A DNA stretch of 64,000 nucleotides from Vicugna vicugna (taxonomy: Eukaryota): the NCBI GenBank assembly GCA_013265495.1, contig MU058065.1:5890302-5954301 (forward strand). Reading direction: 5' to 3'. The notes beneath the pieces were generated by a model, which worked only from the letters and a program-made list of their open reading frames with translations, searched no databases and was not told where the DNA came from. The translations under genes were made by a program, and so were the position numbers. Shown piece after piece: positions 20,706 to 64,000 of the stretch (position 1 is its first letter; every line of letters begins with the position of its first letter).

Positions 20706-30351
<9,646 letters not shown>

Positions 30352-30417
30352 GGCCTCTTGGAAAGACTTCTCTTGCACTCGAGAAGGGAACATTCTCAGC
30401 TGAGCTGAAGCTGGATT

Positions 30418-30423
30418 ATTAAA
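30418..30423 (+). terminator. DNPEP polyadenylation signal (ATTAAA)
   Basis: ATTAAA 67 nt after the stop codon; the homologous hexamer is kept in the paralogous copies at 38606 and 50628. Confidence 0.75.
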
Positions 30424-35239: not shown

Positions 35240-38200
35240 GAAAGTTGGGGGTGGAGAGAGGGAGGTGATTCCTTAGGAGAAAGTGTCTCACACTTCCTGG
35301 AAGCAGTTTCATGGTAGCAGGGCTCAGAAGGGAGGTTGGCTTTGAGTTCGAATTACTACTATTAATCACCATAGGTTTTAATGTGCAAATCATGCCTTAG
35401 TGTTTTCAAAGCACTCTTTACATCTTCAGCCTCATTTGATTCTCATAACAGCATCATTATTAAATTCCCGCTTGATCACATAATACATGCCAAGCACTGT
35501 GCTAAGAAACTTACATGCATTGGCTCCTGTCATTCTCTCAACAACTCTCTGAAGTTAGTCATTTCATAGATGAGAAAACTGAAGCTTGGCAAGTTTAATT
35601 AAATTTCCCTTGGTCACAGAGCTAGTAAGAACAGGGACTCAAATACTGAGCTGGGCAGAAGGCAAACTCCTGCACCCCAGCCAGTCTCTGGATTCCTCCA
35701 CCTTGTGGTCGCTGTGCACTTTAGGGAAAGTGGAAATTCAAATCACACTCTGGTTTCTGGGGTGGGTCTGTCAGACTGGCCCAAGTGTTAGCTCATTCCA
35801 TCCTTTCACCATGATATCACTAGAGATGTGAAGACTCAGAAGTTGGAGCACACGCCCAGCCTCCATGGCCCGGAGACCTGCTCAAGGGATGGGCAGGCGA
35901 CCTTTCCCACCAAAACCACCAGACCAAGGTGTGTGAGGCCTGTGCCCTGTCCACACTGCACATGTCTGGTAGACAGAGCAATTGGGAAGGAAATGAGTTT
36001 TAGGGCTATAGGTAGGAGCTGTCAGAAGTCCTATGAATAGAATGAAGACAGGGCCTGTCTGATTTCAGCCAGAAGCAACCCCATGATCCATTAGTGATGT
36101 CTGCAAAGGGAGGGGAGTGGGAAGCACACCTTCTATTTGCTATCCCCAACTTAATCTTTGTCTTCTAGGGGCAAGCTCCAAGAGAAACTGCCACTGTTTT
36201 TCCCTAGGGTGAGAGTCCTTCATGGATTTTGGGCCTCTTCTCTTCTTCCCTGGGCCCTTTCACCCTTTTCTCTTCACCTTTGACTCCTGGCTTCCCTCCC
36301 CTCAGAGCCCAGTGACCAAGGTGAACAGGGAGCAATGCTTGAACTCTGAAGTGGTTTCAGAGGCCCTGAACCAAGAGGTGACCAACCCCAGCAAGGCCTT
36401 GCTGTGTGTGTTTTGGTGAGGGGGGCTGGCCTTGTCCAGGAAGGCTGAGCCAGCCAAGAGTCTGTTTAAAGAGGGAGGCAAGGTGAAGGAAGGGACAGGT
36501 GTTGGCTGATAAGGAATGACAGGACTCCACTGAGCCTGATGGAGAACCTTCAGGAAGAGAGGGCCTGGAGGATAGGAAAGAACAGAGCTTTCAGTACAGA
36601 CAAAGCCAGCCCAATCCTGGCTCTGTCGCTGCCCAGCTGTGACCTTGGACACATTATCCAAGCCCTTCAAGTCCCTTCTTCCACAGCTGTGAAATGGGGA
36701 TGGTAGTCATGGTGACCCTCAGGGATTGATGTAAGAATTAAAGACAACTGTATGAAAAACGCCTTGGCTGCCAGTGGTTGCTGGATTCTAAGGGAGATTC
36801 TTCCTTTTGCCCACTGGAGGGTGCCCCCACAAGCATCTTTACACAGACACCTTTACACAGATTGCAGAAATGTGAGATACAGGGGTTGCGGGTCTCCAGT
36901 GGCCTGGTGTTCTGTAAGATCAAGCACAGGCACAGAGCTCGAAGGACCTGCAGAAATCTACTTCAGAACTTGTCTAACTTAAAAAGTATATACACAAGCC
37001 CTGTTTTTCTAAGAAAATCTTCAGTATGACATGACCCTAATCCTCCCCTCACCCACCCATCCGTATGTATTATACGTACATACATAAAGATTTTGTCCTA
37101 AAATGAAGTGGGAGAGACGTAGCCAGAGCACCTTACATTCAGCCTCCCCCTTGCTCTTCTCTTGGTGTCGAGGAATTCACCTGAGTAAAGCTTTCAGGCA
37201 TCTCTTGGGACCCTTAAGTTCTTTGGCGCCAGGAGAGAAAATCTCCCATCTAATAGGTATCTACCCGTCTTTACAGATGAGAAACTGAATGGGCAGGTGT
37301 GGAGCAGAACTAGACCAAGTGTCCTGACTCCCAGCCGTCCCTCTGCACTGCCCACACCCTTCCTCCCAGGGACCCTGGTAGAGGTTGGGCTGCTTCACAC
37401 CTCAGACTTTTTTATTCAAGGATTGCCTGAGGAGGTGACTACTTGAACTTTAACCTAAAGAACACAAAGAAACAGCCAGGGGGAGAGCTGGAGGAAGAGT
37501 CCGGAAGGCGGGGAGAAGCAAATACAGTCGCCCTTAGGTGTGATGGTAGAACTTTCAGGGCAATGGACAGTATGGCCTGCGGCAGGAGAGGAGCTTGGAG
37601 ATGAGGCCCAGGACTACTCAAGGTTTTTTTTTTCAAACATTTTTTTATTGAGTTATAGTCATTGTACAATGCTGTGTCAAAGTCCAGTGTAGAGCACAAT
37701 TTTTCAGTTATACATGAACATACATATATTCATTGTCACATTTTTTTTCGCTGTGAGCTCAAGGTTTATAATCTACAGACAGCCTCTGGGTTTGATTCAA
37801 AATGCAGTGGGAAGTCATCAGGGGATTTTAAAGGAAAGAACAGGAAAATATGATAAATATTTTCTAAAGTTACACTGATGCTGATGGAAAAATAGATTAT
37901 GAAATGGACAAGAAGAGAAGCAAGTAGACCTTTTTGGGGCTACTGAGTTATCCAGACAGGATCTGTTGGTACCTCAGACTAAGATCGGGGCAGCGTTGCT
38001 GAGAACCTCCACCTGGGCTCTGTCTGGAGGCGGCCTGCTCCTCAGAGGCACTCCAGCCCTTCACCCTTTTCAGAGACACTAGTCCCATCCCTGTCACCAT
38101 GGCAGCAGAGCTTCCTTAGCTCGTATTGGCTGCTGGACCACATTATCGGTCCTGTGACTGACCCTGTGATGAGGACTGGTTACCATGGTTCTATCAAGTA

Positions 38201-38750
38201 TGTAAACAAGGAGCTGCCAGTCTCCTCCAGGCTCAGGGGACGAACCAGCCCTGTGTCTAACAGAAAATCTGTGGTAGGAGATGGGACTAGAGACAGGGGC
38301 CAGGGGAGGGCCTGCAGTCTGACAGTTTCTGAGCCACTAGTCTCAGGGCCTATTCAGATCAAGACTGCTATTGAGATTCCTTCTGAATTTGGTTGAGGTG
38401 GGGTGGGTGAGGGAGTAGCAACACCTACCTCATTGCATTCACTGAAAATTGCTAGTTTCTTCCCATTTTAGGGTGTTCTTGAGCTGTTCCCTACTCTGAG
38501 TCACAACCTTGCAGCTGATTAAGGCCTCAGGGGAAGCCTCCCATCCTCCACACCTTCCCTGGTGCTTTCCAGAAGGGCAATTTCAGGCTGATCCAAATAT
38601 GGGTTATTAAAGCCAATTTCCAAGAAAACTCTTTCTACAGACTTGTCTAGAAGTAGGATGGGCGGGGCTTGGACCTGACCAGCGTCTCAGAGGTGAGAAA
38701 AGTGGGATCCGAACACAGGGGAGCTTGGGGTATGGAGGACAGAGAGCACA
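35240..38750 (+). pseudogene. Decayed RESP18-like copy A (PTPRN exon 4 / DNPEP exon 12-15 chimera), 5'-truncated
   Basis: Exon 3-like 35811-35928 (acceptor deleted); 40-nt exon 4-like 36169-36208 (GKLQEKLPLFFPR); 90-nt exon 5-like 36306-36395 (SPVTKVNREQCLNSEVVSEALNQEVTNPSK, GT donor lost); DNPEP exon 14 remnant ~38001-38075; terminal exon 38472-38522 (GVLELFPTLSHNLAAD*); ATTAAA 38606-38611. No exon 1 or 2 homologue found upstream. Confidence 0.88.
37627..37757 (-). mobile_element. Young L1 3' end inserted in pseudogene copy A
   Basis: Same 3'UTR family as the 3071 element; 10-bp TSD CTCAAGGTTT at 37617-37626 and 37758-37767. Confidence 0.8.
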
Positions 38751-42028: not shown

Positions 42029-42039
42029 TAATCCCAGAA

Positions 42040-42920
42040 CTGACCACATAGAGTCTTGCAGGTAATAGTAAAGAGTCTAGATCTTACACAAAGGACAGAA
42101 GAAGATCATTAGGGCTTTTAAGGAAATGAGTAGAATAATGATGCAAAAATTTTAAAGACCAGCTTAGTACTGTTGGAGAATGTATTGACAGAGGGCAAGA
42201 GTGGAACAGATAGATCTGTTAGGAAGTATTATTTTGGTCCAGGGAATACTGCAGTAGTTTGAACTGGGCAACCACACAGAGCCAAGAACCTCCAGCTGGC
42301 CATGGACTTTACCCAGAGGAGCCTGAGCCTCAAGGGGAATGCTCTCCAAGGAAACAGCTTCTGACTTCTGTCACCATGGCAACTGTGCTTCATTTGCCCA
42401 GAATGGTTGCTGGGGTGACACATCAGCACTGAGTGACTGATCACCACAATAAGAACTGGTTACCATGGTATAAAGTCTGCAAACAAAAAGCTGCCATTCT
42501 TCTCCAGGTTAGAGTTCTTGACTAGCTATAAATCTAAGAGAAAATCAGGAGCTGGAGAGAAGATCAGGGCCAGAGAGCCAAGGGGAGGCCAGCTGTGGGG
42601 CAGTTGCTGAGTCATTTTGCCTCAGAACTTGCCCAAATCAAGACAGCTATTAGAGGGGAAAGGGGAGTTTACATTGTAGAGAGGGAGTACTCCAGCACAT
42701 ATACACACAAATTACAAATTCCACATTTCCTTCCATTTTAGGGCTTCTTTGAACTGTTTCCTTCTCCAAGCAAAACTTTGTAGCTGACTGAAGCATCGCT
42801 ATCCTCCACCCACTGCACTGCCATTTAGAGGGGCAGGTCTAAGACAACTTGCTTCAGAATTTTTAATGTGGGTTTTGGTCAAAATCCTTCTTGTGGGCTT
42901 GTCTGATGGCAGGAAATGTG
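42040..42920 (+). pseudogene. Decayed copy B: 3' fragment of the RESP18/DNPEP-derived unit
   Basis: DNPEP exon 14 remnant ~42281-42350 (AACCTCCAGCTGGCCATGGAC), intron 14-like sequence, and terminal exon 42742-42791 (GGCTTCTTTGAACTGTTTCCTTCT... = GFFELFPS) with a 1-nt deletion and degenerate poly(A) signal; flanked by L1 sequence on both sides. Confidence 0.85.
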
Positions 42921-44412: not shown

Positions 44413-45316
44413 AGATATCATAATGCTATTGTGATTATGCAGAAAATTCATTCATTCTAAAAGATGTATATTGAATTTTTTAGGTGTGAAATGTCATGAT
44501 GTCTGTAAATTACTTTCAAATACTTCAGCAAGAAAAAGAAGCAATTGTGACAAAATCTTATTAATTGTTAAATCTGAGTGGTAAATATATTAATGTTCAT
44601 TTGAGTCTTCTCTCTTTTTATATTTGAAAATGTTCATAATAAAATTTTAAGCTTAATAAAAAAAAGATTGAAATGTCAGTCTAGAGTTTAGGAAGCCTGT
44701 AACTAAATTAAGTGGAAGCAAGGGATCAGTTAGTTAGCTAGTTATTACAATAGCTCTATTAAAAAGAGTACAGTGGTTTGATCCCAGGCTATGGCAGTGG
44801 ATGTGGAGAAGTAGATGGATGTGCTTATTCTTAGCAGGTCAAACCCATGATTGCTGAAGGGTTTTAGATGGGTGAGGGCAAAGTTAGCATCAAGATAATA
44901 AAAATAGACTAGATTCATTGAGTGCCGGCTACCCAGTTGCTGTTCATTTTTAATCTTCACAGCAAACCTATGAGTTAGGTACAAATCGCACCTGCGTTTC
45001 ACATGCAGTCCATTTCTCCAACCTTGGGACTGGGAGTAGAGGCAGCAGTCCTTGGCATACGATTTATGTAAAAAAGGAGTGGGTTCCTGGGGATGGGGTG
45101 TGGTGGGATGGTTGTGGGGGCGGTAGGGGAAGTAGGGGCTGGATAGGAGTCCGCAGGGGCAGGGCCCGCCAGTGATTGGTCCAGCTGCCAAGGGAGGGTT
45201 GTGCAGATCCCGTTTCGCTAGCGGGTGGGAAGCCACAGCCCCGCTCAGTCCCTCAGGCAGCTGTCCCTACCTTCTCTGCGACTTAGGTGGGGAGCCAGCG
45301 CGCCAAGCCCAGGAGG

Positions 45317-48300
45317 ATGCAGCGCCTGCTGTGGTCTGGGGGCTCCCGGGGGCTCTGGCTGCTCCTCTGTTTCCTGCTTCTGAACAGCCGCCCAGGGGGC
45401 TGCAACGACATTGGTGGCCACGGTCAGGAGGAAACCTGGGGGGTGCGGGCAAGGCTAGAGAGCGATTCTGAGCGAAGCACGCTGGGATGGGGGAGCTCAA
45501 GGTTTGGAACTTAAGAGGAAAGTAATGTGTTTAGGGGTGAAAATAGATGAATGTAGAGAGCATCTCGCCCAAAGAGGCGCAGGCTTGGAGTGGGGCTCGG
45601 CATAGGGGCTTTGCGACTCAGAGGACTCAGGGAAGCCCACTCAGGGGAAGACTGGGGATTTGGGAGGAGGACGGGGAAACATGCATTGGGGGAAGTAAAA
45701 CTGGCCTGTGAGGCCGCAAGAAAAGCAAGACGAGCCAAGGGGCCAGGGAAAAGATGCCTATGGCTGAGGGGTAGGCAGGGGACTAGAATCTCTAGACTGC
45801 AGGAGCAGGGACCGCGGGTTATCGGAGTCCTGGCTCCGAAGAGAAGGCTGGGCCGAGGGATGAGCCAAGGCTTCTTTATAAGCCCCCCAGAGCCTGGTGT
45901 CAGCGATCCAATTTCTGCTAAGAAGTGGAAGGCTAGGCCGGGGTAGAAGAGGATGGAGAGAGAAACAGTCCATCCTTTTTCCATCCCCTTCACTCTGAGC
46001 CAGCCAGGTAGACCATCGCTGACTCATGTCTGAGCTGCCAGAGACCGACTGCGCAGACTCAGGGATTCCAGCGCCTGGCGCGTGGGGCAGACGGCGCAAA
46101 CTCAGAGACTAACGCCAACTTTCCTCCCCCTATCTGTGGGGTTTAGATGCCAATGCAGAGGACTCCCGAAGAACTGTGGGAGGAGGCCTGATGTCAAGCG
46201 ACAGGAAGCAAGGCGTGGGGAGCGGGTGGGGGTTGGTTGTAAGGACGATCAAGCCTTGCGGGAATGCCCAGCTCTCTTCACCGCTCAAAGTCGCCCCCAT
46301 GTCAGGCTTCGGCCATCACTCAGCACCGCGGACAGCGCCAGGAGCCCTGTGGGTCTGACCCAGGGTGTCCAGGTCACTGCTTTTCCTATCCGTTCTGGGA
46401 GTGCTGCCTCAGAGAACAATCTCTCCTTCCAGAAGCTCTTTTCCTTCTCAACAGGGTGCTGGAGGTTCTGGTCCTTCCTAAAGCCAGGAAATTAATACTA
46501 GGATCCATTTGACTGGGGAGAATTCCCAGTCCATAATGACTTGTGGTAATTCCACTATAGGGAAAACAAACAAACAAACAGACTCCAGTCCTACCCATCT
46601 ACCTGGAATAAGGAAAGTGTGTATAGCGTTAGGGATTATCTCCATCTCCTTTCCTTCCCTTATGCAGAGTCTGCCAAACTGTGGCTTTCAGGACAAGGAT
46701 CCAGACACTCAAACCCTATACATACCATACTTTTTTTCCTTTAAGGATTCCAGACCTCCTCTGTAATCCCCTCCAGGCTTCAAAGACTTCCCTGAATGCA
46801 ATTTGCCTGTTTTCCATGCCCTGCCTTTTCACCTGATTATCCATTTCATGTGTGTAGCTTTCTGAGTCTCTGCTTATCTTAACCTCCACAGGATGCTCTT
46901 TGCCTGTAAGCTTGGTTCTTACTGGAAGTTGGTGCCAAAGATGAATGAGATTCAGGGGCTGAAGAACAGGGAAAGTGGTGATGGGGAGGGAAATATGAAA
47001 AGAAGGAGGACTTGAAATTAGGAGGGAGTCTGATGAGGGGGACAGAGACCAGTGAACCCAGGGATGTTAGTGGGAGGAAGCTGCTTTCCTTCAACTGGGA
47101 TTTGTAAGTCTTCTGGCCAGGCTCCTTTCTCACACCACTATTTTGCTCTTAGATGGTCAGAGCCAAGTGGGAGTGGGGCAGCTCTGGTCCCTCCAAGGAT
47201 TTACTACCCCAGTCTTCCAGCGCTTGCAAGTTTTCTTCCAGCAGATTGTGCCTCAAGGTGAGTAAAAGGTGAAGAGAGTCTGGGACCTGGTCAGATACAA
47301 GGGTAGGTAATAATGAGGGGCTTTTTATCTGAGAACAGGTTTTCTTCCCCAGATATCTCTTCTTGAAACTTTTCTGTCATGCTTACCTCCTGGAGGACCA
47401 GGTGGGACCAGAGTAAGTGTGGAGCTGGAAGGACAGGCTGTTTGCACTTGAACATCCTGGAAGAACCCAGTAGAGGCTTCTAGAAGAAGCCCTTGGAAGA
47501 TGTCAGCATCCAACTCCTTGAGACTAGCCCCAACCCCAACCACAGGCACTATCTGAGATTTTACAGAGACAGGAATCCTTAAATTCTCAGCCAGAACACA
47601 CACACACACATATACACACACACTTCAGCTTCTGAGTAGGAAGCAGAGCAGATTATAGGACAAATAGAAGGGAGGAATGAAGGGAGTGAGGAGCCTCTTG
47701 AAGACAGATGGCCAACCCTTCCTTATAGCAGAGTTGCATGAATGAGAGAAGAGTCAGATAGGAAATGCAGCTTGAGTTCATTGTACTACTACCACTACGA
47801 ATGTCTATCATGTTTATAATGCCTTAGAGCAGCGGTTCTCAAAGTGCATCTCTGGACCAGTAGCAGCATCACCAGGAGACTTGTTAGAAATGCTAATTCT
47901 TGAGCGTCATCTCAGACCTCTTGAATCAGAAACTCTAGGAGTGAGGAACAACAATCTGTGTTTTAACAAGCTTTTTGGGAGATTCTGATGCACCCTAAAG
48001 TTTGGAAATCACTGTCTTAGTTTTCTCAGCAATTTTTATATCCCTAATCTCATTTAATCCTCACAATAGCATCAAATGAATCAGCAAAAAGAGTATAGTC
48101 TTAATCCTAACTGAACATTTATTACATGCCAGGAACTGTGCTATGCAACTTTTATATGTCATCTCATTTAATTCTCTCCACAAATTGTGATCTTTTATCT
48201 ACCTGAGGGAGAGGGGGAGTGTTGATCTCACTCTGGTCCCTGGAGTGGGCCAGTTAGAACATCCCTGGTGTTAATTCACCACATCTTTTCACCCTGCAGG

Positions 48301-50550
48301 TTTGTTCTGGAAGGATGACATGACCCAGAATGTGATGACCCAGAAGATGGGACACATTAGCAAACTCCATCCCCAGGATCCATGTGTGAGGGTTGGACAG
48401 GCAGCCTTTCCCACCAGAACCACTGGGATGAGGTATGTGAGGCCTATGGTCAGTCCATGCTGTCTGACTGACAGACAGAGCAAGGAGGGAGCAGGCATTA
48501 ATGCAGGTAAGAGCTGCCAGGAGCACTATGAGAATGATTCAGAGGTCCTGTCTGTGATCTGCAGGAAACAGTTCCATGAGCCATTAGTAATGTCTGCAAA
48601 GGGAGAGGAGGCGGGTGCTAACAAGCCTAGGTCCCATTTATCATCCTCATGTCTTTTAGGGGCAAGCAAGAGGAGAAACTTCGACTCTTATTCCCCAAGG
48701 TGAGACCCATGTGTCTTCTCAAGACATGAATCCTGACTTTGGGTCCCATCTCTTTCCCTCAGGGGCTCTGCCACCTTTTTCTGTCTCCTTCTTGATTCCT
48801 GTCTTCCTTCTTCACAGAGCCCAATGGCCAAGGTGAACAAGGATCAGTGCTTTACCTCCAGAGTGGTTTCAAAGGCCTTGAAACAAGAGGTGGCCAACCC
48901 TGTCAAGGTGAGGGCTCACTTTTTCTTGGGAGGCTAGAATCACCAAAGACTTCTTTAAATGAGGGAGGCAGGTGTGAAGGAGGGAATGGGCATTGGGATG
49001 TGAACAAAAAAGCTGAAGAAAATATCTTTCCCAATTGAATGGTACCCAGATTTTCCTGTCTCTCAGACCACCTTTGGGTGTCCAAATAAGAGGTTGAGGG
49101 GCATGATGTAGGTGCTGAGAGCCTCTAAGGGTGAAATGATCTATAGTATCATGAAAAACAATTGAGTTTAAAATAGGCATGCAAAATTGAAGGGTTTCAC
49201 AATTAAGTAAAAGGTCCCTCTTTTCTCCATGCACTCCTCTGTATATAGCAAGTGATAGTGAAGTTACTTTGGATGAATGGAAGAGGTAGCCCAGAGGCCT
49301 TTGCATTCAGCACCTCCCTGCCTTGCTCTACTCTGTGGCCTGAGTGAGCATCCCAAGGTTCTGCATTATCTCTTTGGGATGCTTGAACACTTCAGAATTC
49401 GACTGAAAACACTCATATAGCCCTCCCATCTATCTTTATAGATAAGACATTGGGGCCCAGGCTGGTCAAGCAGCTTACTCAAGGCTTCATAGCAGGTTCG
49501 TGGCAGAGCAAAGACTGGACCCAGGTGTCCTGATTCTCAGCCCTTTCCCCTGAAAAGCCTCTGCCCTTCCTCTCAGGGACTGCAGCAGGGGTTGGGCTGT
49601 CCCACATACCAGACTCTTCAACATGGACAAGTCTTTTTTTGGACTAAGGCCTAAATTACAAGAAGGTGCCAGCCAGAGGACAATATAAAGGAAGGGCATC
49701 CAAGGCAGAGAGCACCATACTGACAAATGCCCTGAGACAAAGATCCATAGTATGTCTGAGGGACAGATGGAAAAGTCAGTGGTAGAGAATTAGGTTAGAG
49801 AATGTAGGACTGGGGTTGACCACACAAGGACTCATAGATCATGGTGGAAGGTTTGGATTTTATTCCAAGTATGGTGGCAAGTCGATGGGGAAATTTTAAG
49901 GAAAGGGATATCATAATGTGATATGATTTGAAAAGACCACTCTAGTGATATTGGGGGATGGATTGTGAGAAAACTAAGAGTGAAAACTAAGAGGCCTATA
50001 AGGAGCTGATCATCCTGGTACAAGGGAGACTGAGGTGGCTTGGACTGGAATGGTGGCAGTGGAGTCAGCACCTCCAGCTGGCCGTGCACTCCATCCAGAG
50101 GCATCCTGCATCTCTGGGGCTTCCAGCCCCTTATGCTCTCCTAGGAAACCTGTTCTCACTCCCATAAGATGGCAGCTGGGCTTCCTAAGCCTGGATCGGC
50201 TGCTGGGTCGGAGCACACAGAGCTAAGTGAAGACCACCTTTGGGAGACTTGTTGGTGTGGTGCTTTCAAGAAAACAAACAAGATACTGCCATGCTTCTCC
50301 AGCCTGAGCCCAAGGGAAAATCACAGGATGAGAACCCTATGAATTCCATGTGGGAGCAAGGGGACAAGCACTCAATCGATGGACTGAGTTACTGTGGGCT
50401 TACTTAAATCAGGCTGTTACTGAAGCATTTTGGAACGACTAGGTGAGGGAGGGGCCACCTTCCCACATACTGATTCCAATCCTTTGTTTCTTGTTTTAGG
50501 GCTTCTTTGAGTCACCCTCCACTGTAGGCCACAACCTTGTCGCTGACTGA
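45317..50550 (+). CDS. RESP18: Regulated endocrine-specific protein 18, complete, 6 coding exons, 174 aa with N-terminal signal peptide
   Basis: Exons 45317-45422, 47153-47257, 48300-48432, 48660-48699, 48818-48907, 50500-50550 (525 nt, all GT-AG, frame preserved). Protein: [174 protein letters not shown]. It resembles rodent RESP18 as I recall it and sits at the expected position between DNPEP and PTPRN. Confidence 0.93.
46319..46339 (+). promoter_or_regulatory. RE1/NRSE (REST-binding) element in RESP18 intron 1
   Basis: CTCAGCACCGCGGACAGCGCC is a near-perfect canonical RE1, at the position homologous to the PTPRN element. Confidence 0.85.
46892..46940 (+). pseudogene. Dead exon: remnant of PTPRN exon 2 within RESP18 intron 1
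   Basis: CCTCCACAG|GATGCTCTTTGCCTGTAAGCTTGGTTCTTACTGGAAGTTGGTGCCAAAG|AT aligns to PTPRN CCTCCACAG|GCTGTCTGTTTGACCGCAGACTCTGCTCTCACCTGGAAGTCTGTATTCAGG|GT, with two 1-nt gaps and donor GT>AT. Confidence 0.8.
47830..48014. mobile_element. MER5A-like hAT-Charlie element in RESP18 intron 2
   Basis: Terminal inverted repeats CAGCGGTTCTCAAA / TTTGGAAATCACTG; internal TTGTTAGAAATGC...GAATCAGAAACTCT...TGTGTTTTAACAAGC. Confidence 0.8.
50064..50145 (+). pseudogene. Dead exon: 3' half of DNPEP exon 14 within RESP18 intron 5
   Basis: CCTCCAGCTGGCCGTGCACTCCATCCAG matches DNPEP CCTCAACTGGCCATGCACTCCATCCGG (PQLAMHSIR); 5' half missing and donor GT replaced (CTAG|GAA); the downstream ATGGCAGCTGGGCTTC matches DNPEP intron 14. 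Confidence 0.85.
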
Positions 50551-50627
50551 GACCTCGTGCAAGCCTCTCTGCCCCAGTGCCCTCCCCATTGCCCTCCAGG
50601 GAGGTAGTTCCAGGATGAATCTCCAAC

Positions 50628-50633
50628 ATTAAA
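50628..50633 (+). terminator. RESP18 polyadenylation signal (ATTAAA)
   Basis: ATTAAAGTG 78 nt after the stop, homologous to the DNPEP ATTAAAGTG at 30418. Confidence 0.7.
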
Positions 50634-57659: not shown

Positions 57660-58100
57660 CCTTGGGGAGCAGCATACGTCAAGATAAGGTCAAGTGGGAA
57701 TTCTAGTGAGGCGCCTACTGTTTGGTGTAGGAGGCTGGGGTGGGTAGGACCGCGGCTAAGACAGTGCTCTTACGCCACGTATGACGCAAATTAGCGCAAG
57801 TGCTGGGGGTGGAGGTGTCGTCACCACATACCCGGGGTTGGCGGAGCTGCTGCGAGAGGGGCGTGTAGACCCCGCCTCGGTGGGTGGGGAGTGGCAGGCC
57901 CCGCCTCGGCCCCTTTGGCAGGCTCCGGCCGGCGTCGCTGCGGCTCTGGCAGCGGAGCGAGAGCCCGGAGCCTGGAAAGATGCGGCGCCCGCGGCGGCCT
58001 GGAGGTCCCGGGGGATCTGGGGGTCTCCGGGTGCTCCTCTGCCTGCTGCTGCTGGGCAGCCGCCCGGGAGGCTGCAACGCCATTAGTGCCCACGGTCAGA
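57660..58100 (+). promoter_or_regulatory. PTPRN CpG-island promoter with CRE-like sites
   Basis: CpG-rich region before the ATG; CRE-like motifs TACGTCA (57675-57681), TGACGCAA (57782-57789) and CGTCA (57819-57823); CCCGCC GC boxes near 57870 and 57900. Confidence 0.75.
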
Positions 58101-61100
58101 AGGGAACGGGGGTTGGGGGGAGGGGAGGGGAGGATGGTGCCGGGAGCAAAACTCAGTGGGGGATGTGGAGGGCAAGTGCCAGGAAGGTAGGAATCTTAGG
58201 TAGAATGTATGTGTGGAGTGGGGTAGGGGAGGCACTGAGAGATGAGGAAGACGAGAGGGCCTCTTAGAGGAAAGGGGCGTAGGCCTGGAGGTGGGGCTGG
58301 GAACACGGGGGCGGGACCTAAGAGAAGCGGGCTCAGGGGAAGATTGCGGTTATGGGAGAAGGAATGGGGGTGCATATGGACAGAGGGACCTATAGAGACA
58401 GGATACAATACCACGGGAGAAGCCAGTCGCTCCAAGGCGCCAAAAAGTGGCGATTGGCGCTGAAGGATGGAGGGGTGGAGGGAGGGAGAGGGAACCCTGA
58501 TCTCTGGGCAGTAGAAGTCGGGGCCGTGAGCTTTGGGGTCCCAGCTTTCAGTAGAAGATCAGGCCGAGGGAGGATCCAGGGTTTCTCTTCAAGCCTAGAG
58601 AGGCCAATAGCTATAATCTGATCTCCGGATAAGAGGGGTACAGCTGGGGGAGGGGCAGAAGAGAGTGAAGAGGGAAGGGTCGTCTCCCGTCCCCCTCCCC
58701 ACAGCCAGGCCTGGTGCTGACTCACATCTTAGAGGACAGAGACAGTCAGCGCTGACTCACGGGCAGGGGGAGGGTGGGAGCGGGGGGCGTGTGGGGGAAG
58801 GGGCGCAGCCTCGCCGTCTGGCGCTCTCCTTCCCCACCCGGCTTGGAGGCCAATACAAGGTACTTCCTGTGGCGCTGCGAGTTGGTAAGGTGGAAGATGA
58901 AGACTGGAATGGCGCAGAGGTCGGGTCCCTTGGCGACTCCTCACCCTGTCACCCTTCCCTCCCCCCATAACTGCTTCCAGGCAAGCCTTCAGCGGCACCA
59001 AGCTCAGAGCTTCAGCACCGCGAACAGCGCCAGCGGCATTGGGGCCACGGACCGCAGGGACAGTGTGGGGAGCATTGCCTTACCCCACCCTTACCCCTTT
59101 CCCCTAAAAGGGGAAGTGTGCTAAGGTTTCCATCTCTTCCGAGTCCCGGGCCATCATAAGATGCTTTTGGTGATTTGGGAAGGAAAGTCCCTTTTTTCTC
59201 AGAACTTGGCAAAAAGCTCTCCCACAGTAATTCTATGAGAGTAGAATATATGATTCTCTACTTTCACTACCCCCATGCACCTGGAGGGCTTCTTCTCCTC
59301 GTTACTTAGTTAAGCAACTGAAGATTTTAGGGGAAGAATCCAGACTTGCAAATCTTTAAAATCCAAAGCCAGGTCCTGTGCTTTCTTCTCTTAAGAATTC
59401 TAGGCCTCTTCTCACCTCTCCTCCCAGCTTAAAGTCTTCCTTAGAATGAAAGAATGAATCCCCTCTGCTTCCCCCTTTCCTAGCCTGTCCATCCATCTGA
59501 CCATTCTGTGTGTGCGTGTGTGTGTGTCTGAGCCTATGCTCACCTGTCCTCCACAGGCTGTCTGTTTGACCGCAGACTCTGCTCTCACCTGGAAGTCTGT
59601 ATTCAGGGTAAGGCCCAGACACAGGATATACAAGATGGGGGTGTGTGTGGTAGGGTACACAGTAAGAAAGAAGTGGGGAGTGGGAGGCCTGGAAGGGAGA
59701 AGGGGAATTGGGTTTGAGGAGAAAAGGGACTGGCCTGGAGGAGCAGAGCTCTCTGAAGCCAAGAGAAGAGTTAGACGTAGTGCTGTCTATTTGCAACATG
59801 GGCTTTGGAAGGCCTCTTGGAAGCCCCTTGTGACATGACTTTTTTGCTCTTAGATGGCTTGTTTGGACAGTGCCAGGTGGGAGTGGGGCAAGCCCGGCCC
59901 CTTCTGCAAGTCACTTCCCCAGTTCTTCAACGCTTACAAGGTGTGCTCCGACAGCTCATGTCCCAAGGTGAGGTCTAGGTGCACTGGAGGAGAGAGACTG
60001 AAACTTCATTAGATAAGGGTGGGGAAGTGAGGGGCCACCTGACTCAAAGGTTTCTCTCATGGAGCATTCCTATTACAGCCACTCTAGCGCCTCACCTTCC
60101 CAGGCCTTGCTGGAGGAGACAGGAGTGGGGGTGGAACCCTAGAGATAGGCTTTTCACATGTAGACTCTCTGGAGGAATCCAAAGGAGGTTTTTAGAAGAA
60201 GCCACTGGAACAGACCAGCATCCATCTCTTTAGGACCAGCCTAATCTCTAGAACTGACTGAGTGCTCCAGAAACATGAGTTCTGGAGTCCTCAGCCAGAA
60301 CAGCCCACTCATCTAATTCACTCATTCAACCAGTATTTATTGGGTACTTCTGTGTGGCCAACATAGTTTTAGGTGCTTGGGATGTAGCAAGGAGTAAAAC
60401 AGACAAAGATCTCTGCCTCCTGGGGTTTACATTCAGGGGTGAAGGGAGGGAATACATTATATAAATTAGAAAATATATAGTGTATTAAAAGGTAATAAGT
60501 ATCATGGGAAAAAAACAAATACTATAGTAAGATAAAGGAATCATAAATAGTGAGGTAGGAAGCTGCAGGATTAAATTGAGTGGTCAAGATGGAACTTACT
60601 GAGACTATGAAATTTAAATAAAGACATCAAGGAGGTGAGGGTGTTTTCCAGAAGGTTATCTAGTGGAAGAGTGTTTAAGGTGGCCAGAGAGCTAGAACAT
60701 GCTCCCTAAGGTAGGAGAATGACTTTGAGGAACACCATGGAGAACACCTTTACAGTGTGGCTGTAGAGGAGTGATGGAGAAGCAGAGTAGAAGATGCAGT
60801 CAGGTAGGTGAAGAAGAAGGATTTTCCTCTAGGATTTTATAAGAGAATGTGTGGACATTGGCATTACTCTGAGTAAAAGAGGAAGCCATCACAAGATTTG
60901 AGCATAGGGGTGCATGATCTCACTTCTACTTTAAAAGGATCACTCTTGCTGCTGTGTTAAGAACAGAGTGTAGGGAGTCAAGGGTAGAAACAGAACACTA
61001 AACATTAAAAGCTACCACAATAACTCATATAAGTGAAGAATAGGTGTGGATGAGGGTGGTTGCAGGGAGGTAATGAGAAATGACAGGATTCTGCCTATAT

Positions 61101-64000
61101 TTTTAAGGTAGTGAGCATGATTTCATGAAATATTGGATAGAGCCATGAAAGAAAGGGAGGAGTCAAGGATGACACTCAGGTTTTATTGCCTGAACAACTG
61201 AGTTGATGGACATGTCATTAACTCTGCTGAAGGATCAACTGGGGGTAAGGGGTGTTCAGTTTTGAATGTTCTTAGTTTAAGATAGCCATTCAAATAGAAT
61301 GGGAAGTTGAGTACATAATCTTGGGTTTAGAAAGAGAAAAGTCTGGAGTGGAGATATAAATTTGGAATTCTTTGATATATAGATGGTAATTAAAACCTTG
61401 AGATGGATGAAATAATCAAAGGATTGAATGTTTACGAAGAAGAGCCCTAGAGAATTCTAATATTAAGAGGATGAGGAGAAGGAGTATAACTATCAAGGGA
61501 GACTGAGAAGGAGAAGCCAGTGAGGTAGGAGGAAAAACAAGAGTGTTTGGTGTCCTGGAAGCCAAGAGAAAGTGTATCAAGGAGGAAGGAGTGACCAAAC
61601 AGTGTCAAATGATGTGGTAGGTTAAATCAGATGAGATCTGAGAATTGACCACTTAATTTAGATATACGGAAGCCCCTGGTGATCTTGGTGAAAGCAGTTT
61701 TAGTAGAATAGTTGGAAATAAAATCCTGGGTAGGGTGGATTAAGAGAGAATGGGAGGAGAGGAATTGGATATAGCCAGCATAGGTAACACTTTCAAAGAG
61801 TCTTGCTGCAAAGAAAATCAAAGACAGGGTGATAGATGGAGGGGAATGTAGGATCAAGCAGAATTTTTATAAGATGGAAGACATTGCATCATGTTTGTGT
61901 GCTAATGGGAATAATTCAGTAGAGAACAGGAGAAAATGATGATGTAGGAAAAAGGGGAGGATTGGGGGGGAGATTTTTCTGAGTAGGTGGTACGGATGAA
62001 ATCTAGTGCTCAAGTGGAGGAACTGGCCTTATACAGGAACACAGAGATTTCATCTAATGCTAATAGGCAAAAAGGCTGGTATGGATGCTAGTAGACCCCA
62101 GGGTGTGAATTAAGAACAGTACAGATTATTAACCCAGAAGCAGAGGAAAAGGAATAGGGGAGTGGGTGTGGAGAGTGGGAGATTATTTCTTTAGAATAGG
62201 TGACTGACCTTTCCTGAGAGCAGAGTTGCATTGAGGGAAGCAGCCAAACAGATCTGCCTCAGCATAAGATGGTGGTGACGAATGTTTAAAACAAGTGTAT
62301 AGTACTTTGGAGTTTTCCAAGCACTTCGATTTCCCTGATTGCATTTAATCTTTACTACAGATCCATAAAGTATGTATTATTCTTATTTTACATATAAAGA
62401 AAACAAAGGTTCAGGGCCCCAAAAAAGAAGAAGATGAATAATAATTATGATGATGATAATAATAGCAGTTATGGAAAGCACACTATGTATCAGGTACTAT
62501 TCTAACTATTTAATGTTGTGTTATTTATCACAACAATCTTAGCAGGTTATAAACCACCATTTTTCAGATGAAAGAACTGAGGCTCAGACAGGTTCAGCCA
62601 AGGTCACACAATTAGTAAGTGGCAGAGGATTTAAACCAAGTCTCACTCCCAAATCTATACCTGAGGGTGGGAAAAGGACAGCTCAGATCACCCACTGAGT
62701 CTCCAAACTCCCTCCACTGCTCTTCTGCTCTGCCAAATTCAGTACACTGCAAGGTAGGGGGTGCAGTTTTTATCTGCACTGGTCCCTGTTACTGGGCTCT
62801 CAGACTGTCCCAAGCCAACCATCTTACCCTATCCTGCTCCCCGGCAGGACTGTCCTGGCACGATGACCTCACCCAGTATGTGATCTCCCAGGAGATGGAA
62901 CGCATTCCCAGGCTTCGCCCCCCAGAGCCCCATCCAAGGGACAGGTATGCATCCTTTCTCATCATCTCTAGCATGACAAGGCTGCTGGGTCTGATGGACA
63001 GAGGGACATGGGCACGAAGCAGGCTGGGGCATGGGTAAAAGAGGTTCTGGAGTGGTCATCTGACATGTTCACATGCCCAACATAAGCTGAGTTCATCCCC
63101 GGGGACCCAGCTAAACAGGGACATTAAAAGATGTTTTGAAACATTTGGACATTTGGAATTTTTAAAGAAGCATCAAAGTAGTCATCATGAAACAAATTAG
63201 AATTTTGTTGGACCTAAGTTGTTTAATGTTCAGTTTGATTACTATGTGGAATTGTATATGGTAGGAGGTACCATCATCTTTTTGTGGTTAGGGTCTCTGA
63301 AGGCATCATTCAGACCCTGTAAAGCAGAGGAAAGTAAATGAGGGCTTGGGGCTCAAATGATAATACCAAATAAAGAAGGCACAGTGGGGCTGGGGGAGCA
63401 GAGTGAGGGGGCACAGTACTGAATGTCTGAACGTGTACTTGGAGACCCAGGTGCGGGGACATGCACACCGGGACAGTGAGGCAAGCTGCAGCCAGAGTTG
63501 GTCTAGAGAGGTTCCTGGCTGCCTTTCCCTGCTACTGTTCTCCCTTTCTCTGTCCCGTAGCCTCACGCTTCATCAGTTCCGCCACTGTGTTTCAGGGACC
63601 CAGGCATGCTTACCAGGGAGGCAATGACCTCTGCTCCAGGCTTGGCCCTCTGGCCTTCCCCATGCTACTCCCTCCTTTCCTGAGGCTACCTCATCTCTTA
63701 CGAAGTCAGGCTCACCCTAAGCTAAGCCTGCCTGGCCCCTTCTCTCTGTCTCGTAGGCTCTGCCCCACACAACCAACACACACACATACACAAACACACA
63801 CACACACTTTGCTTTCCTCCCCAGATCTGGCTTGGTGCCCAGGAGACCTGGTCCCACTGGGGAGCTGCTTTTACAGGGCATCCCCACTGGCTCTGCTCCT
63901 GCTCCCCAGCACCGGCTTCCTCGACCTCCAGTAGGTGGGGGCGGAGCTGGGGCGGGCTCCTCCCTGTCCCCTCTGCAAGCTGAGCTGCTGCCCCCTCTCT
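57980..64000 (+). CDS. PTPRN: Receptor-type tyrosine-protein phosphatase-like N (IA-2/ICA512), 5' part; continues beyond the window
   Basis: Exons 57980-58094 (MRRPRRPGGPGGSGGLRVLLCLLLLGSRPGGCNAISAH), 59557-59607 (GCLFDRRLCSHLEVCIQ), 59854-59967 (DGLFGQCQVGVGQARPLLQVTSPVLQRLQGVLRQLMSQ), 62848-62944 (GLSWHDDLTQYVISQEMERIPRLRPPEPHPRD), 63825->64000 (SGLVPRRPGPTGELLLQGIPTGSAPAPQHRLP...). Canonical splice sites, phases consistent. Confidence 0.97.
59011..59031 (+). promoter_or_regulatory. RE1/NRSE (REST-binding) element in PTPRN intron 1
   Basis: TTCAGCACCGCGAACAGCGCC versus the canonical RE1 TTCAGCACCnCGGACAGCGCC (one core mismatch). Confidence 0.8.
60305..62090 (-). mobile_element. L2 LINE remnant in PTPRN intron 3
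   Basis: Begins with the antisense L2 tail CACTCATTCAACCAGTATTTATTG, followed by L2 motifs (TTAAAAGGATCACTCTTGCTGCTGTG, GAGGGAGTCAAGGATGAC, GGTGTCCTGGAAGCCAAG). Confidence 0.82.
63765..63807. repeat. (CA)n repeat just upstream of the PTPRN exon 5 acceptor
   Basis: Direct reading. Confidence 0.85.

What the first reader, a model, noticed from the sequence alone, without database searches (positions are those of the whole stretch)
45317..50633. RESP18 is a PTPRN-DNPEP chimeric gene: its C-terminal third derives from the neighbouring aminopeptidase
Seen in sequence: RESP18 exons 1-3 match PTPRN exons 1, 3 and 4 (the RESP18/IA-2 N-terminal homology is established knowledge). RESP18 exons 4-6 match DNPEP exons 12, 13 and 15. 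Exon 4 and DNPEP exon 12 are both 40 nt, phase 2->0, 32/40 nt identical ([13 protein letters not shown] vs [13 protein letters not shown]). Exon 5 [30 protein letters not shown] aligns with [30 protein letters not shown] (14/30 aa). Exon 6 and DNPEP exon 15 are both 51 nt with the stop at the same codon ([16 protein letters not shown] vs [16 protein letters not shown], 34/51 nt). The short intervening intron (118 vs 124 nt), the 3'UTR and ATTAAA are also homologous. Inference: one tandem duplication running from DNPEP intron 11 to PTPRN intron 4 of an ancestral DNPEP>PTPRN pair gives exactly DNPEP - [PTPRN 5'::DNPEP 3'] - PTPRN. A signal peptide and granule luminal domain were thereby fused to a fragment of a cytosolic peptidase. 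I am not aware of the DNPEP origin being described, but cannot check the literature.
Basis: partly seen in the sequence, partly recalled or inferred. Interest (0 to 1): 0.95.

Follow-up and report, generated by a model that had tools for sequence, protein, structure and literature searches.

The report
RESP18 is a PTPRN-DNPEP fusion gene
The neuroendocrine gene RESP18 was built in early mammals by a DNA duplication that joined the front of its neighbour PTPRN to the last exons of its other neighbour, the peptidase gene DNPEP, and a second, decayed copy of the same fusion lies beside it.

Summary
RESP18 exons 4, 5 and 6 match DNPEP exons 12, 13 and 15 in the same reading frame (32/40, 60/90 and 34/51 nt). 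The stop codon and ATTAAA signal sit at the same aligned places. The introns match too: 48513-48910 aligns with 26354-26770 at E 3e-26, and a dead relic of DNPEP exon 14 lies in RESP18 intron 5.

Protein searches agree. RESP18 against all PDB sequences returns DNPEP as its top three hits. A RESP18-versus-DNPEP profile comparison gives E 5e-8.

RESP18's promoter and exons 1-3 match PTPRN's promoter and exons 1, 3 and 4. The join lies in RESP18 intron 3, and the exon phases fit (2 with 2).

- A second, truncated copy of the same fusion at 35.4-38.7 kb, with relatives predicted in bat, seal, raccoon dog and colugo.
- A fourth copy of the last-exon region near 42.5 kb.
- 36 nt of RESP18 exon 3 are exonised PTPRN intron.

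So there were at least two rounds of duplication, not one.

The DNPEP-derived tail lacks exon 14, which I recall carries a zinc-binding histidine of DNPEP. It is as conserved among 20 placentals as the PTPRN-derived part.

Seven literature searches found no description of this origin. I could not check outgroup synteny or lay RNA reads.

The parts
21321..30423 (+). DNPEP (aspartyl aminopeptidase, M18), parent gene of the 3' part. There are 14 coding-exon matches to sheep DNPEP P0115 aa 20-492. ATTAAA lies at 30418-30423.
   Evidence: tblastn. Exon 14 is 55/56 identical to PDB 7u5h. Pfam M18 for P0115 and for exon 13.
26354..26513 (+). 3' part of DNPEP intron 11 that is homologous to the 3' part of RESP18 intron 3. 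It marks the left breakpoint side.
   Evidence: blastn; three-way alignment A1.
26514..26553 (+). DNPEP exon 12 (40 nt, phase 2->0), parent of RESP18 exon 4.
   Evidence: 32/40 nt, 7/13 aa.
26678..26779 (+). DNPEP exon 13 (102 nt), parent of RESP18 exon 5.
   Evidence: 60/90 nt, 14/30 aa; M18 profile positions 340-373.
29770..29937 (+). DNPEP exon 14 (168 nt, phase 0->0). It is present only as a dead relic in the three copies.
30301..30351 (+). DNPEP exon 15 coding part (51 nt with TGA), parent of RESP18 exon 6.
   Evidence: 34/51 nt, 8/16 aa.
35384..38715 (+). Second, truncated chimera ('MID copy'). It holds part of RESP18 intron 2, an exon-3-like piece (35813-35929, lacking its first 7 codons and acceptor), an exon-4-like piece (36169-36208), an exon-5-like piece (36306-36395, donor GT lost), an exon-14 relic (37934-38132), and an exon-6-like piece (38472-38522, TAA) with ATTAAA. 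No exon 1 or 2 was found. It is a pseudogene in this genome.
   Evidence: blastn (69% over 600 columns, E 9e-59); tblastn; alignments.
42116..42791 (+). Fourth copy of the exon-14-relic / last-exon region. A 1-nt deletion in the exon-6-like part shifts the frame.
   Evidence: blastn; alignment A2; (z 7.4).
44422..45316 (+). RESP18 5' flank and promoter, homologous to the PTPRN 5' flank (56763-57979).
   Evidence: 44907-45454 vs 57505-58124, 382/539, z 28.6; 44422-44575 vs 56763-56903, E 9e-10.
45317..45422 (+). RESP18 exon 1 (ATG, signal peptide), from PTPRN exon 1.
47153..47257 (+). RESP18 exon 2, from PTPRN exon 3 (three codons shorter).
48300..48432 (+). RESP18 exon 3. This is PTPRN exon 4 (97 nt) plus 36 nt of exonised PTPRN intron 4. 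The ancestral donor is missing at a 4-nt gap in the alignment.
48440..48512 (+). Interval in RESP18 intron 3 that contains the PTPRN-intron-4 / DNPEP-intron-11 junction.
48660..48699 (+). RESP18 exon 4, from DNPEP exon 12.
48818..48907 (+). RESP18 exon 5, from DNPEP exon 13 minus 12 nt at its 3' end.
49067..49162 (+). Alternative 3' exon used in predicted camel, pig and chimpanzee isoforms. Here it carries an in-frame stop.
   Evidence: tblastn.
50030..50203 (+). Relic of DNPEP exon 14 and the start of intron 14, inside RESP18 intron 5. The donor GT has become GA.
   Evidence: 126/169, z 17.4.
50500..50633 (+). RESP18 exon 6 (51 nt coding, TGA), 3'UTR and ATTAAA (50628-50633), from DNPEP exon 15.
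57980..62944 (+). PTPRN exons 1-4 (57980-58094, 59557-59607, 59854-59967, 62848-62944), parent of the 5' part. Exon 5 begins near 63823.

Best explanation
RESP18 is a chimeric gene made at the DNA level. In an ancestor where DNPEP lay directly upstream of PTPRN on the same strand, a tandem duplication copied the block from DNPEP intron 11 to PTPRN intron 4. This placed a copy of the PTPRN promoter and exons 1-4 in front of a copy of DNPEP exons 12-15.

PTPRN exon 4 ends in phase 2 and DNPEP exon 12 begins in phase 2. Splicing across the new hybrid intron therefore read the DNPEP exons in their own frame, down to DNPEP's stop codon and ATTAAA signal. PTPRN supplied neuroendocrine transcription, the signal peptide and part of the luminal 'RESP18 homology domain'. 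DNPEP supplied 60 C-terminal residues and the mRNA 3' end.

Later changes:
- The exon-14 donor was lost (GT to GA), which dropped the 168-nt exon without breaking the frame.
- The PTPRN-exon-2-like exon was lost from RESP18.
- 36 nt of intron were exonised at the end of exon 3.
- 12 nt were lost at the end of exon 5.

The chimera was then duplicated again. This left a second paralogue, which is a truncated pseudogene here but is predicted as a gene in some other placentals, and a further 3' fragment.

Shown: homology, junction, phases, the extra copies, and conservation of the tail. Inferred: the single-block tandem mechanism, the timing (mammalian lineage, before the placental radiation), and any function of the tail. 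My guess for the tail is a constrained, unstructured luminal segment that affects RESP18's fate in the ER or granule pathway. It is not a peptidase.
For: DNA homology, including introns:
- 48513-48910 vs 26354-26770, E 3.5e-26 (alignment).
- Exon-14 relic: 126/169 identical, z 17.4 against 200 shuffles.
- Last exon, stop codon, 3'UTR and ATTAAA are aligned in four copies.
- Exon identities are 32/40, 60/90 and 34/51. None of 200,000, 100,000 and 200,000 random pairs reached these levels.
- This is not a dispersed repeat. In the 2.03-Gb assembly, the 398-nt exon 4-5 block found only itself and the second copy.

Protein level:
- phmmer of RESP18 P0001 against 177,635 PDB sequences returned 4 hits at E<=10. 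The top three are aspartyl aminopeptidases (4dyo E 2.3e-4, 7u5h 3.8e-3, 3var 4.2e-3), aligning aa 116-158 with 367-409.
- hhalign of 20 RESP18 against 13 vertebrate DNPEP gave probability 94.8 and E 5.2e-8, aligning 116-156 with 374-414.

Direction of descent: the DNPEP 3' exons are ordinary M18 sequence conserved to fish and bacteria. DNPEP is therefore the parent.

PTPRN side: promoter plus exon 1 is 382/539 identical, z 28.6. Exons 2 and 3 give E 5.5e-11 and 6.7e-10.

Block duplication: the spacer between the second copy and RESP18 is colinear with the spacer between RESP18 and PTPRN at 4 plus-strand anchors. The best is 44422-44575 vs 56763-56903, E 9e-10.

Phases.

Single origin of the junction: the second copy aligns to RESP18 straight across it (600 columns, E 9e-59). 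It shares the GT-to-GA donor change. It is closer to RESP18 than to DNPEP in exons 4 and 5 (30/40 and 73/90 against 24/40 and 63/90).

Timing:
- In a 59-column tree, the RESP18 and second-copy tails form one clade (100/100) that groups with mammalian DNPEP (85/92), outside sauropsid and fish DNPEP.
- In an 88-column tree, 7 second-copy-type sequences (91/92) separate from 20 RESP18 sequences that include a tenrec (86/84).
- All 83 of the 89 hits that carry an organism name are placentals.

The tail is real coding sequence:
- It is 60 aa in 19 of the 20 chosen placentals and 61 aa in one.
- Mean pairwise identity is 0.716, against 0.651 for residues 36-114 (190 pairs).
- One unnamed 1,089-nt contig encodes the full 174-aa form. 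The same CDS spans 5.2 kb here, so that contig must be spliced sequence.
Against: - No outgroup genome could be examined. Absence of RESP18 outside placentals, and ancestral DNPEP-PTPRN adjacency, rest only on which names turned up in protein searches that are limited by word sharing.
- The four copies of the last-exon region are about equally distant (K2P 0.58-0.79) and quartet site patterns are 16/18/20. The order of the later duplications is therefore not resolved from that region.
- Tree supports of 85/92, 91/92 and 86/84 fall below the tool's star threshold, on 59 and 88 columns.
- No colinear homology remains between the DNPEP 3' spacer and the other two spacers. The first unit is inferred rather than seen end to end.
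- The 20 RESP18 sequences used for conservation were picked because they have the canonical ~174-aa form (20 of 89 hits). Many other predicted isoforms end differently. The chimpanzee 228-aa form lacks exon 4 and uses another last exon.
- Pfam's M18 model does not hit RESP18 at E<=10. No DNPEP-length protein reached E<=0.001 in the 1.84-billion-protein search.
- The structure model is of low confidence (pLDDT 49.5), so 'disordered tail' is only weakly supported.
Confidence: 0.88

Rival explanations
1. The chimera was assembled by two separate events: a partial copy of the DNPEP 3' end and a partial copy of the PTPRN 5' end, inserted next to each other. It was not one tandem duplication of a single block.
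For: The spacer downstream of DNPEP (30.4-35.4 kb) shows no colinear homology to the other spacers. The locus clearly underwent several rearrangements, with four copies of the last-exon region.
Against: The order and orientation are exactly what a single tandem duplication predicts. There is one junction inside one intron. The unit from the second copy's 3' part through the spacer to the RESP18 5' part is colinear with the unit from the RESP18 3' part through the spacer to the PTPRN 5' part. Two events landing so as to mimic this are less parsimonious.
Confidence: 0.08
2. Exons 4-6 are a gene-prediction artefact (read-through into DNPEP-like relics), and the real RESP18 protein ends earlier or elsewhere.
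For: Many predicted isoforms end differently. These include an alternative exon at 49067-49162 in the camel, pig and chimpanzee models, and intron-retaining forms.
Against: The three exons keep AG/GT borders, phase and an open frame. The tail has the same 60-aa length in 19 of 20 chosen placentals and is more conserved than the N-terminal part. By contrast, the second copy has lost its exon-5 donor and the 42-kb copy carries a frameshift. A 1,089-nt contig encodes the full 174-aa form. The Pfam RESP18 model itself extends 25 residues into this tail.
Confidence: 0.02
3. The resemblance is chance or convergence between short basic peptides.
For: The individual exon-level protein matches are weak on their own: tblastn E values of 35, 0.001 and 1.2 for the three exons.
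Against: Nucleotide homology continues through non-coding sequence at E 3.5e-26. Exon lengths, phases, stop position and poly(A) signal all coincide. The order is colinear, an exon-14 relic is present, and the profile-profile E value is 5.2e-8.
Confidence: 0.005

Closest known systems
RESP18 / 'RESP18 homology domain' of PTPRN (ICA512/IA-2) and PTPRN2 (phogrin)
   Same: This is the known N-terminal homology. ICA512 residues 35-131 resemble Resp18, and the Cys-rich part 35-62 is absent from Resp18 (bioRxiv 10.1101/521351, passage read). Exon 4 encodes ICA512 residues 94-126 (PMC10201709, passages read). The window shows the same thing: exons 1-3 match PTPRN exons 1, 3 and 4, and PTPRN exon 2 is missing.
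   Different: The literature I could read treats RESP18 as the namesake of the domain and says nothing about its last 60 residues. 'Gene duplication', 'chromosome' and 'ancest' occur 0 times in PMC10201709. Here RESP18 appears as the derived gene, and residues 115-174 come from DNPEP. Pfam PF14948 spans the junction: RESP18 matches profile positions 1-103, while PTPRN matches only 1-79.
DNPEP, aspartyl aminopeptidase (peptidase family M18; PDB 4dyo, 3var, 7u5h)
   Same: RESP18 residues 116-158 align to 4dyo residues 367-409. The last 16 residues align to the DNPEP C-terminus, in the same frame, with the same exon borders.
   Different: Only about 59 of about 475 residues are retained. Exon 14 is absent. 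From recalled UniProt annotation, not tested here, exon 14 carries a zinc-binding histidine, and the other metal ligands lie upstream of exon 12. The Pfam M18 model does not hit RESP18. The fragment sits behind a signal peptide, so it is a relic of the enzyme and not an enzyme.
Chimeric genes created by tandem duplication across two adjacent genes (for example Drosophila Sdic from AnnX and Cdic, and tandem-duplication chimeras in D. yakuba). These examples are recalled, not looked up.
   Same: The 5' part and promoter come from the downstream parent and the 3' part from the upstream parent. Both parents stay intact on either side, and the junction lies in non-coding DNA.
   Different: This case is old: it predates the placental radiation by the trees. 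It is fixed and conserved across placentals, and it was itself re-duplicated. It joins a secretory-pathway module to a piece of a cytosolic enzyme, read in that enzyme's original frame.

Membership tests
Chimeric gene formed by tandem segmental duplication across two neighbouring genes | Both parent genes flank the chimera, are intact, and lie on the same strand in the order upstream parent - chimera - downstream parent. | tested here: met
   DNPEP 21.3-30.4 kb, RESP18 45.3-50.6 kb and PTPRN from 57.98 kb are all on the + strand. A second, truncated chimera lies in between.
Chimeric gene formed by tandem segmental duplication across two neighbouring genes | Homology extends into introns and flanks, showing a DNA-level copy rather than retroposition of an mRNA. 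| tested here: met
   Intron 11/3, intron 12/4, the exon-14 relic, intron 14/5 and the 3' flank; promoter.
Chimeric gene formed by tandem segmental duplication across two neighbouring genes | A single junction between the two parental sequences. | tested here: met
   PTPRN-like sequence runs to about 48440 and DNPEP-like sequence starts at about 48513, both within RESP18 intron 3. The exact base is not resolved.
Chimeric gene formed by tandem segmental duplication across two neighbouring genes | The duplicated units are colinear over the whole block, including the intergenic spacer. | tested here: inconclusive
   Units 2 and 3 share 4 colinear spacer anchors, the best at E 9e-10. Unit 1's spacer shows none.
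Chimeric gene formed by tandem segmental duplication across two neighbouring genes | Outgroups have the two parents adjacent without the chimera. | not testable with these tools
   No vertebrate outgroup genomes are held. The only indirect evidence is that 83 of 83 named RESP18 hits are placental, while platypus and marsupial DNPEP are present in the same collection.
RESP18 family (Pfam PF14948) | Match to the RESP18 domain model above its gathering score. | tested here: met
   P0001, which is 172/174 identical to the window's model: E 4e-56, 188 bits against a cutoff of 25, aa 37-139.
Peptidase family M18 (Pfam PF02127) | Match to the M18 model. | tested here: not met
   No M18 hit at E<=10 for 5 RESP18 proteins. 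DNPEP exon 13 alone does hit (E 7e-7, profile 340-373).
Peptidase family M18 (Pfam PF02127) | A complete set of metal-binding and catalytic residues. | tested here: not met
   Only the equivalents of 4dyo residues 367-409 and the last 16 residues are retained. Exon 14 survives as a non-spliced relic. The identity of the ligand residues is recalled, not tested.

The most novel reading that the evidence does not exclude
Placental mammals acquired not one but two neuroendocrine genes, RESP18 and a 'RESP18-like' paralogue that keeps the PTPRN Cys-rich exon. They arose by serial tandem duplication that fused the PTPRN promoter, signal peptide and condensing domain to the in-frame tail of a cytosolic zinc peptidase. 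After a burst of change (stem length 0.74 per site), the peptidase-derived tail became a constrained functional module. It may be the determinant of RESP18's ER residence and short life, or a new processed peptide. The 'RESP18 homology domain' is therefore named after the derived gene, and Pfam's model of it is partly peptidase-derived.
Probability: 0.45. Interest if true: 0.75.

Novelty: new member of a known kind. Interest (0 to 1): 0.62.

Why it matters
RESP18 has been studied for over thirty years, in pituitary, islet, hypertension and Parkinson models. Its name was given to a domain of the diabetes autoantigen ICA512/IA-2. Yet the origin of its last third appears undescribed.

Knowing that residues 115-174 are a re-used piece of DNPEP has four consequences:
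- It explains why RESP18 has no homology to PTPRN beyond exon 3.
- It shows that the Pfam RESP18 model mixes two ancestries.
- It gives a clear experiment: delete or swap the tail and measure stability, ER versus granule localisation, and condensation.
- It adds a rare, well-dated vertebrate example of a gene born by tandem duplication across two neighbours. The parental frame, stop codon and poly(A) site are still in use, and a fossil sister copy lies alongside.

It also flags an unstudied 'RESP18-like' paralogue that may still be active in some bats and carnivores.

Tried and rejected
- RNA evidence in this species. The look-up of sequencing runs listed 21 runs. These rows are therefore no evidence either way.
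- Library-wide phmmer with RESP18 gave 61 hits at E<=0.001 among 1.84 billion representatives. None has the length of a DNPEP. The only 430-530-aa hit, P0223, is a PTPRN isoform. So the relationship is invisible to a database-wide search. I fetched 31 of the 61.
- AlphaFold2 of RESP18 with 20 sequences gave pLDDT 49.5 and pTM 0.16. This is too poor for a fold search, so none was run.
- Relic of PTPRN exon 2 in RESP18 intron 1: the local alignment found only the 60 nt just upstream of RESP18 exon 2.
- Quartet analysis of the four last-exon copies gave 16/18/20 informative sites, so there is no resolution.
- Earlier notes of this scan held nothing on this place or these genes.
- Pfam scan of 8 long open frames in 5-15 kb upstream of DNPEP found no family.
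- The review by Atari et al. 2019 on RESP18 could not be opened.
- Literature searches:
  - RESP18+DNPEP: 4 papers, all deletion, mapping or GWAS gene lists by title and abstract.
  - RESP18+'chimeric gene': 1 paper, unrelated.
  - 'RESP18 homology domain'+evolution: 9 papers, none on origin by listing.
  - RESP18+'aspartyl aminopeptidase': 0 papers.
  - RESP18 alone: 190 papers, 40 listed.
  - RESP18+eutherian: 1 paper, a phosphatase survey.
  - RESP18+PTPRN+'tandem duplication': 0 papers.
  - The library lacks most subscription journals and I read no supplements. 'Not in print' means not found in these searches.

Full report
WHAT IS THERE

The window is mammalian DNA with three genes on the + strand. 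DNPEP runs from about 21.3 to 30.4 kb. It gives 14 coding-exon matches to sheep DNPEP P0115 residues 20-492, and its exon 14 is 55/56 identical to bovine DNPEP 7u5h. RESP18 lies at 45317-50633. PTPRN starts at 57980 and runs off the end of the window.

The RESP18 model I read has six exons with AG/GT borders and encodes 174 residues. It differs at two residues from the protein named RESP18 of Vicugna pacos (P0001).

CHECK OF THE OBSERVATION

- RESP18 exon 4 (48660-48699) and DNPEP exon 12 (26514-26553) are both 40 nt, both phase 2->0, and 32/40 identical.
- RESP18 exon 5 (48818-48907) aligns without gaps to the first 90 nt of DNPEP exon 13 (26678-26779) at 60/90 nt and 14/30 aa.
- RESP18 exon 6 and DNPEP exon 15 are both 51 nt with the stop in the last codon, 34/51 identical.
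- The introns between the first two exons are 118 and 124 nt.

None of 200,000, 100,000 and 200,000 random ungapped pairs from the window reached these identities.

The decisive point is that the similarity does not stop at exon borders. Blastn of the RESP18 region against the window aligns 48513-48910 with 26354-26770 (420 columns, E 3.5e-26). That stretch covers 160 nt of intron upstream of the 40-nt exon, the short intron and the next exon.

RESP18 intron 5 contains a recognisable relic of DNPEP exon 14 and the start of intron 14 (50030-50203 vs 29820-30005, 126/169, z 17.4 against 200 shuffles). The last exon, the stop codon, the 3'UTR and the ATTAAA signal (50628-50633 and 30418-30423) line up.

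The 398-nt exon 4-5 block is not a dispersed repeat. In the 2.03-Gb assembly that holds the window, it found only itself and one more copy 12 kb upstream.

INDEPENDENT PROTEIN-LEVEL TESTS

- A phmmer search of RESP18 (P0001) against all 177,635 distinct PDB sequences returned four hits at E<=10. The top three are aspartyl aminopeptidases (4dyo 2.3e-4, 7u5h 3.8e-3, 3var 4.2e-3), with residues 116-158 on 367-409.
- A profile of 20 placental RESP18 against a profile of 13 vertebrate DNPEP gave hhalign probability 94.8 and E 5.2e-8 over 41 columns.
- In a search of 1.84 billion representatives, no DNPEP-length protein reached E<=0.001.
- Pfam's M18 model does not hit RESP18 at E<=10.

The last two results probably explain why the link has gone unnoticed. 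An automatic trace does exist: UniProt entry G1MEF3, the panda RESP18, carries the name 'Aspartyl aminopeptidase'.

THE PTPRN SIDE AND THE JUNCTION

RESP18's 5' flank and exon 1 align with PTPRN's over 539 columns (382 identical, z 28.6). A further anchor lies about 0.8 kb upstream (E 9e-10). RESP18 exons 2 and 3 match PTPRN exons 3 and 4 (E 5.5e-11 and 6.7e-10).

PTPRN exon 2 (59557-59607, the Cys-rich piece) has no counterpart, and no relic of it was detectable. This agrees with the published remark that the Cys-rich part of the ICA512 domain is absent from Resp18 (bioRxiv 10.1101/521351, passage).

PTPRN exon 4 is 97 nt and ends in phase 2. RESP18 exon 3 is 133 nt. Its last 36 nt align to the start of PTPRN intron 4, where a 4-nt gap has removed the old GT donor.

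PTPRN-like sequence fades at about 48440 and DNPEP-like sequence starts at 48513.

Both parental exons at the junction are in phase 2. The fused transcript therefore read DNPEP's exons in DNPEP's own frame from the start.

1. A second chimera. Positions 35384-38715 align with RESP18 48003-50733 (the best piece is 600 columns, 69%, E 9e-59). The alignment runs straight across the junction. It covers the end of intron 2, an exon-3-like piece, intron 3, exon-4-like and exon-5-like pieces, an exon-14 relic, and an exon-6-like piece with a stop and ATTAAA.

   In this genome the second chimera is a pseudogene.
   - No exon 1 or 2 was found upstream.
   - The exon-3-like piece lacks its first seven codons and its acceptor.
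   - The exon-5 donor is gone.

   In exons 4 and 5 it is closer to RESP18 (30/40, 73/90) than to DNPEP (24/40, 63/90).

   In other species, proteins of this type are predicted. Some carry a signal peptide and a PTPRN-exon-2-like Cys-rich piece. They occur in Rhinolophus sinicus ('RESP18-like'), Leptonychotes weddellii, Nyctereutes procyonoides and Galeopterus variegatus.

   In an 88-column tree, seven such sequences group together (91/92), apart from 20 RESP18 sequences that include a tenrec (86/84). The root was a proxy made of PTPRN exon 4 plus DNPEP exons 12-13. The support is moderate, not starred.

2. A fourth copy of the exon-14-relic / last-exon region at about 42116-42791, with a 1-nt deletion.

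3. All three non-DNPEP copies have GA where DNPEP has the exon-14 GT donor. Exon 14 is 168 nt and phase 0->0, so dropping it kept the frame. The shared change implies that it happened before the copies separated.

4. RESP18 exon 5 lacks 12 nt that DNPEP and the second copy both keep.

MECHANISM

The arrangement consists of three units. Unit 1 is the DNPEP 3' part with its spacer. Unit 2 is the second copy's 3' part, a spacer, and the RESP18 5' part. Unit 3 is the RESP18 3' part, a spacer, and the PTPRN 5' part.

Units 2 and 3 still share four colinear spacer anchors. Unit 1's spacer has none.

The simplest history has three steps. First, one tandem duplication from DNPEP intron 11 to PTPRN intron 4 created the chimera. 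Second, the chimera accumulated changes. Third, it was duplicated again at least once, partly or wholly.

The four last-exon copies are roughly equidistant (K2P 0.58-0.79; quartet patterns 16/18/20). That region therefore does not order the later events.

Direction is not in doubt. The DNPEP exons are ordinary M18 sequence shared with fish and bacteria.

TIMING

In a 59-column tree rooted on shark DNPEP, the RESP18 and second-copy tails form a clade (100/100) on a long stem (0.74 per site). That clade groups with mammalian DNPEP (85/92), outside sauropsid and fish DNPEP. By eye, the tails share several states with mammalian DNPEP only. Examples are Ser in AVSEAL, Val in REVA, and His/Arg-Asn before the C-terminus.

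Of the 89 RESP18 hits, 83 carry an organism name, and all 83 are placentals, Afrotheria included. Platypus and marsupial DNPEP are present in the same collection.

I could not examine outgroup genomes. 'Arose in the mammalian lineage before the placental radiation' is therefore an inference.

IS THE TAIL USED?

In 20 placental sequences of the canonical form, the tail is 60 aa in 19 and 61 aa in one. These 20 were chosen out of 89 hits, which is a selection. Mean pairwise identity is 0.716, against 0.651 for the PTPRN-derived residues 36-114 (190 pairs). By contrast, the second copy has lost its exon-5 donor and the 42-kb copy carries a frameshift.

One unnamed 1,089-nt contig encodes the whole 174-aa form, which must be spliced sequence.

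Not all isoforms keep the whole tail. Predicted camel, pig and chimpanzee forms use an alternative exon (49067-49162 here, with an in-frame stop in this genome). The chimpanzee 228-aa form also lacks exon 4.

The tail keeps none of exon 14. I recall, but did not test, that exon 14 holds a zinc-binding histidine of DNPEP. The tail is therefore not a peptidase. The AlphaFold2 model is poor (pLDDT 49.5) and gives the tail no regular structure.

My working guess, which is inference only, is a constrained unstructured luminal segment that shapes RESP18's behaviour in the early secretory pathway. RESP18 is described as an ER-resident 18-kDa protein (PMC11302214, passage) and as 'short-lived' in the title of Bloomquist et al. 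1994 (seen in reference lists).

A SIDE RESULT

Pfam's RESP18 domain (PF14948, 103 positions) covers RESP18 residues 37-139 and so crosses the junction at 114/115. A PTPRN isoform matches only profile positions 1-79. The last quarter of that model is therefore DNPEP-derived sequence.

NOVELTY

The N-terminal RESP18/IA-2 homology is established. In seven full-text searches I found no paper that links RESP18 to DNPEP other than as neighbouring genes in deletion or GWAS lists. I also found none that discusses a tandem-duplication origin or a second paralogue. The two RESP18HD papers I searched by passage say nothing on gene origin.

The library lacks most subscription journals. The 2019 RESP18 review could not be opened, and I read no supplements.

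The kind of event, a chimeric gene made by tandem duplication across two neighbours, is well known. This is a new, old and unusually clean vertebrate member of that kind.

VERDICT

Interest is 0.62.

Noticed in passing
window 35384-38715: Truncated second PTPRN-DNPEP chimera (pseudogene here). Related 'RESP18-like' proteins, some with a signal peptide and Cys-rich exon, are predicted in a bat, a seal, a raccoon dog and a colugo. These may be an unstudied paralogue.
   Followed up: partly
window 42116-42791: A further partial copy holding the exon-14 relic, intron and last exon, with a 1-nt deletion. It lies about 2.2 kb upstream of the start of the RESP18 promoter homology. Its place in the order of duplications is unresolved.
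   Followed up: partly
window 49067-49162: Alternative RESP18 3' exon that replaces exon 6 in the predicted camel, pig and chimpanzee isoforms. In this genome it has an in-frame stop after ...RLRGMM. I did not check its origin, for example whether it comes from DNPEP intron 13.
   Followed up: no
Pfam PF14948 on RESP18 aa 37-139 (window exons 2-5): The curated 'RESP18 domain' model crosses the chimeric junction. PTPRN matches only profile positions 1-79 of 103.
   Followed up: yes
protein P0018 (UniProt G1MEF3, panda RESP18): It carries the automatic name 'Aspartyl aminopeptidase', so some pipeline apparently detects the DNPEP-like tail.
   Followed up: no
protein P0132 (Cricetulus griseus, 1502 aa): A gene model with RESP18, M18, tyrosine-phosphatase and IA-2 Pfam domains. 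It is presumably a mis-merged DNPEP/RESP18/PTPRN prediction, which fits adjacency and co-orientation in hamster.
   Followed up: no
window 14033-14120, 14965-15052, 31249-31336, 43463-43534: Four copies (85-90% identical) of a short interspersed repeat, in both orientations. Further repeat pairs are 31757-31877 with 39274-39351 and 43956-44077, and 3056-3231 with 37626-37756 and 41849-42030. A run of 72 N lies at 3232-3303.
   Followed up: no
proteins P0050 (chimpanzee), P0216 (mouse cDNA product), P0088 (grey seal): Several isoform products end in sequences that look like the last exon read in another frame. So the DNPEP-derived last exon may be translated in more than one frame in different isoforms.
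   Followed up: no
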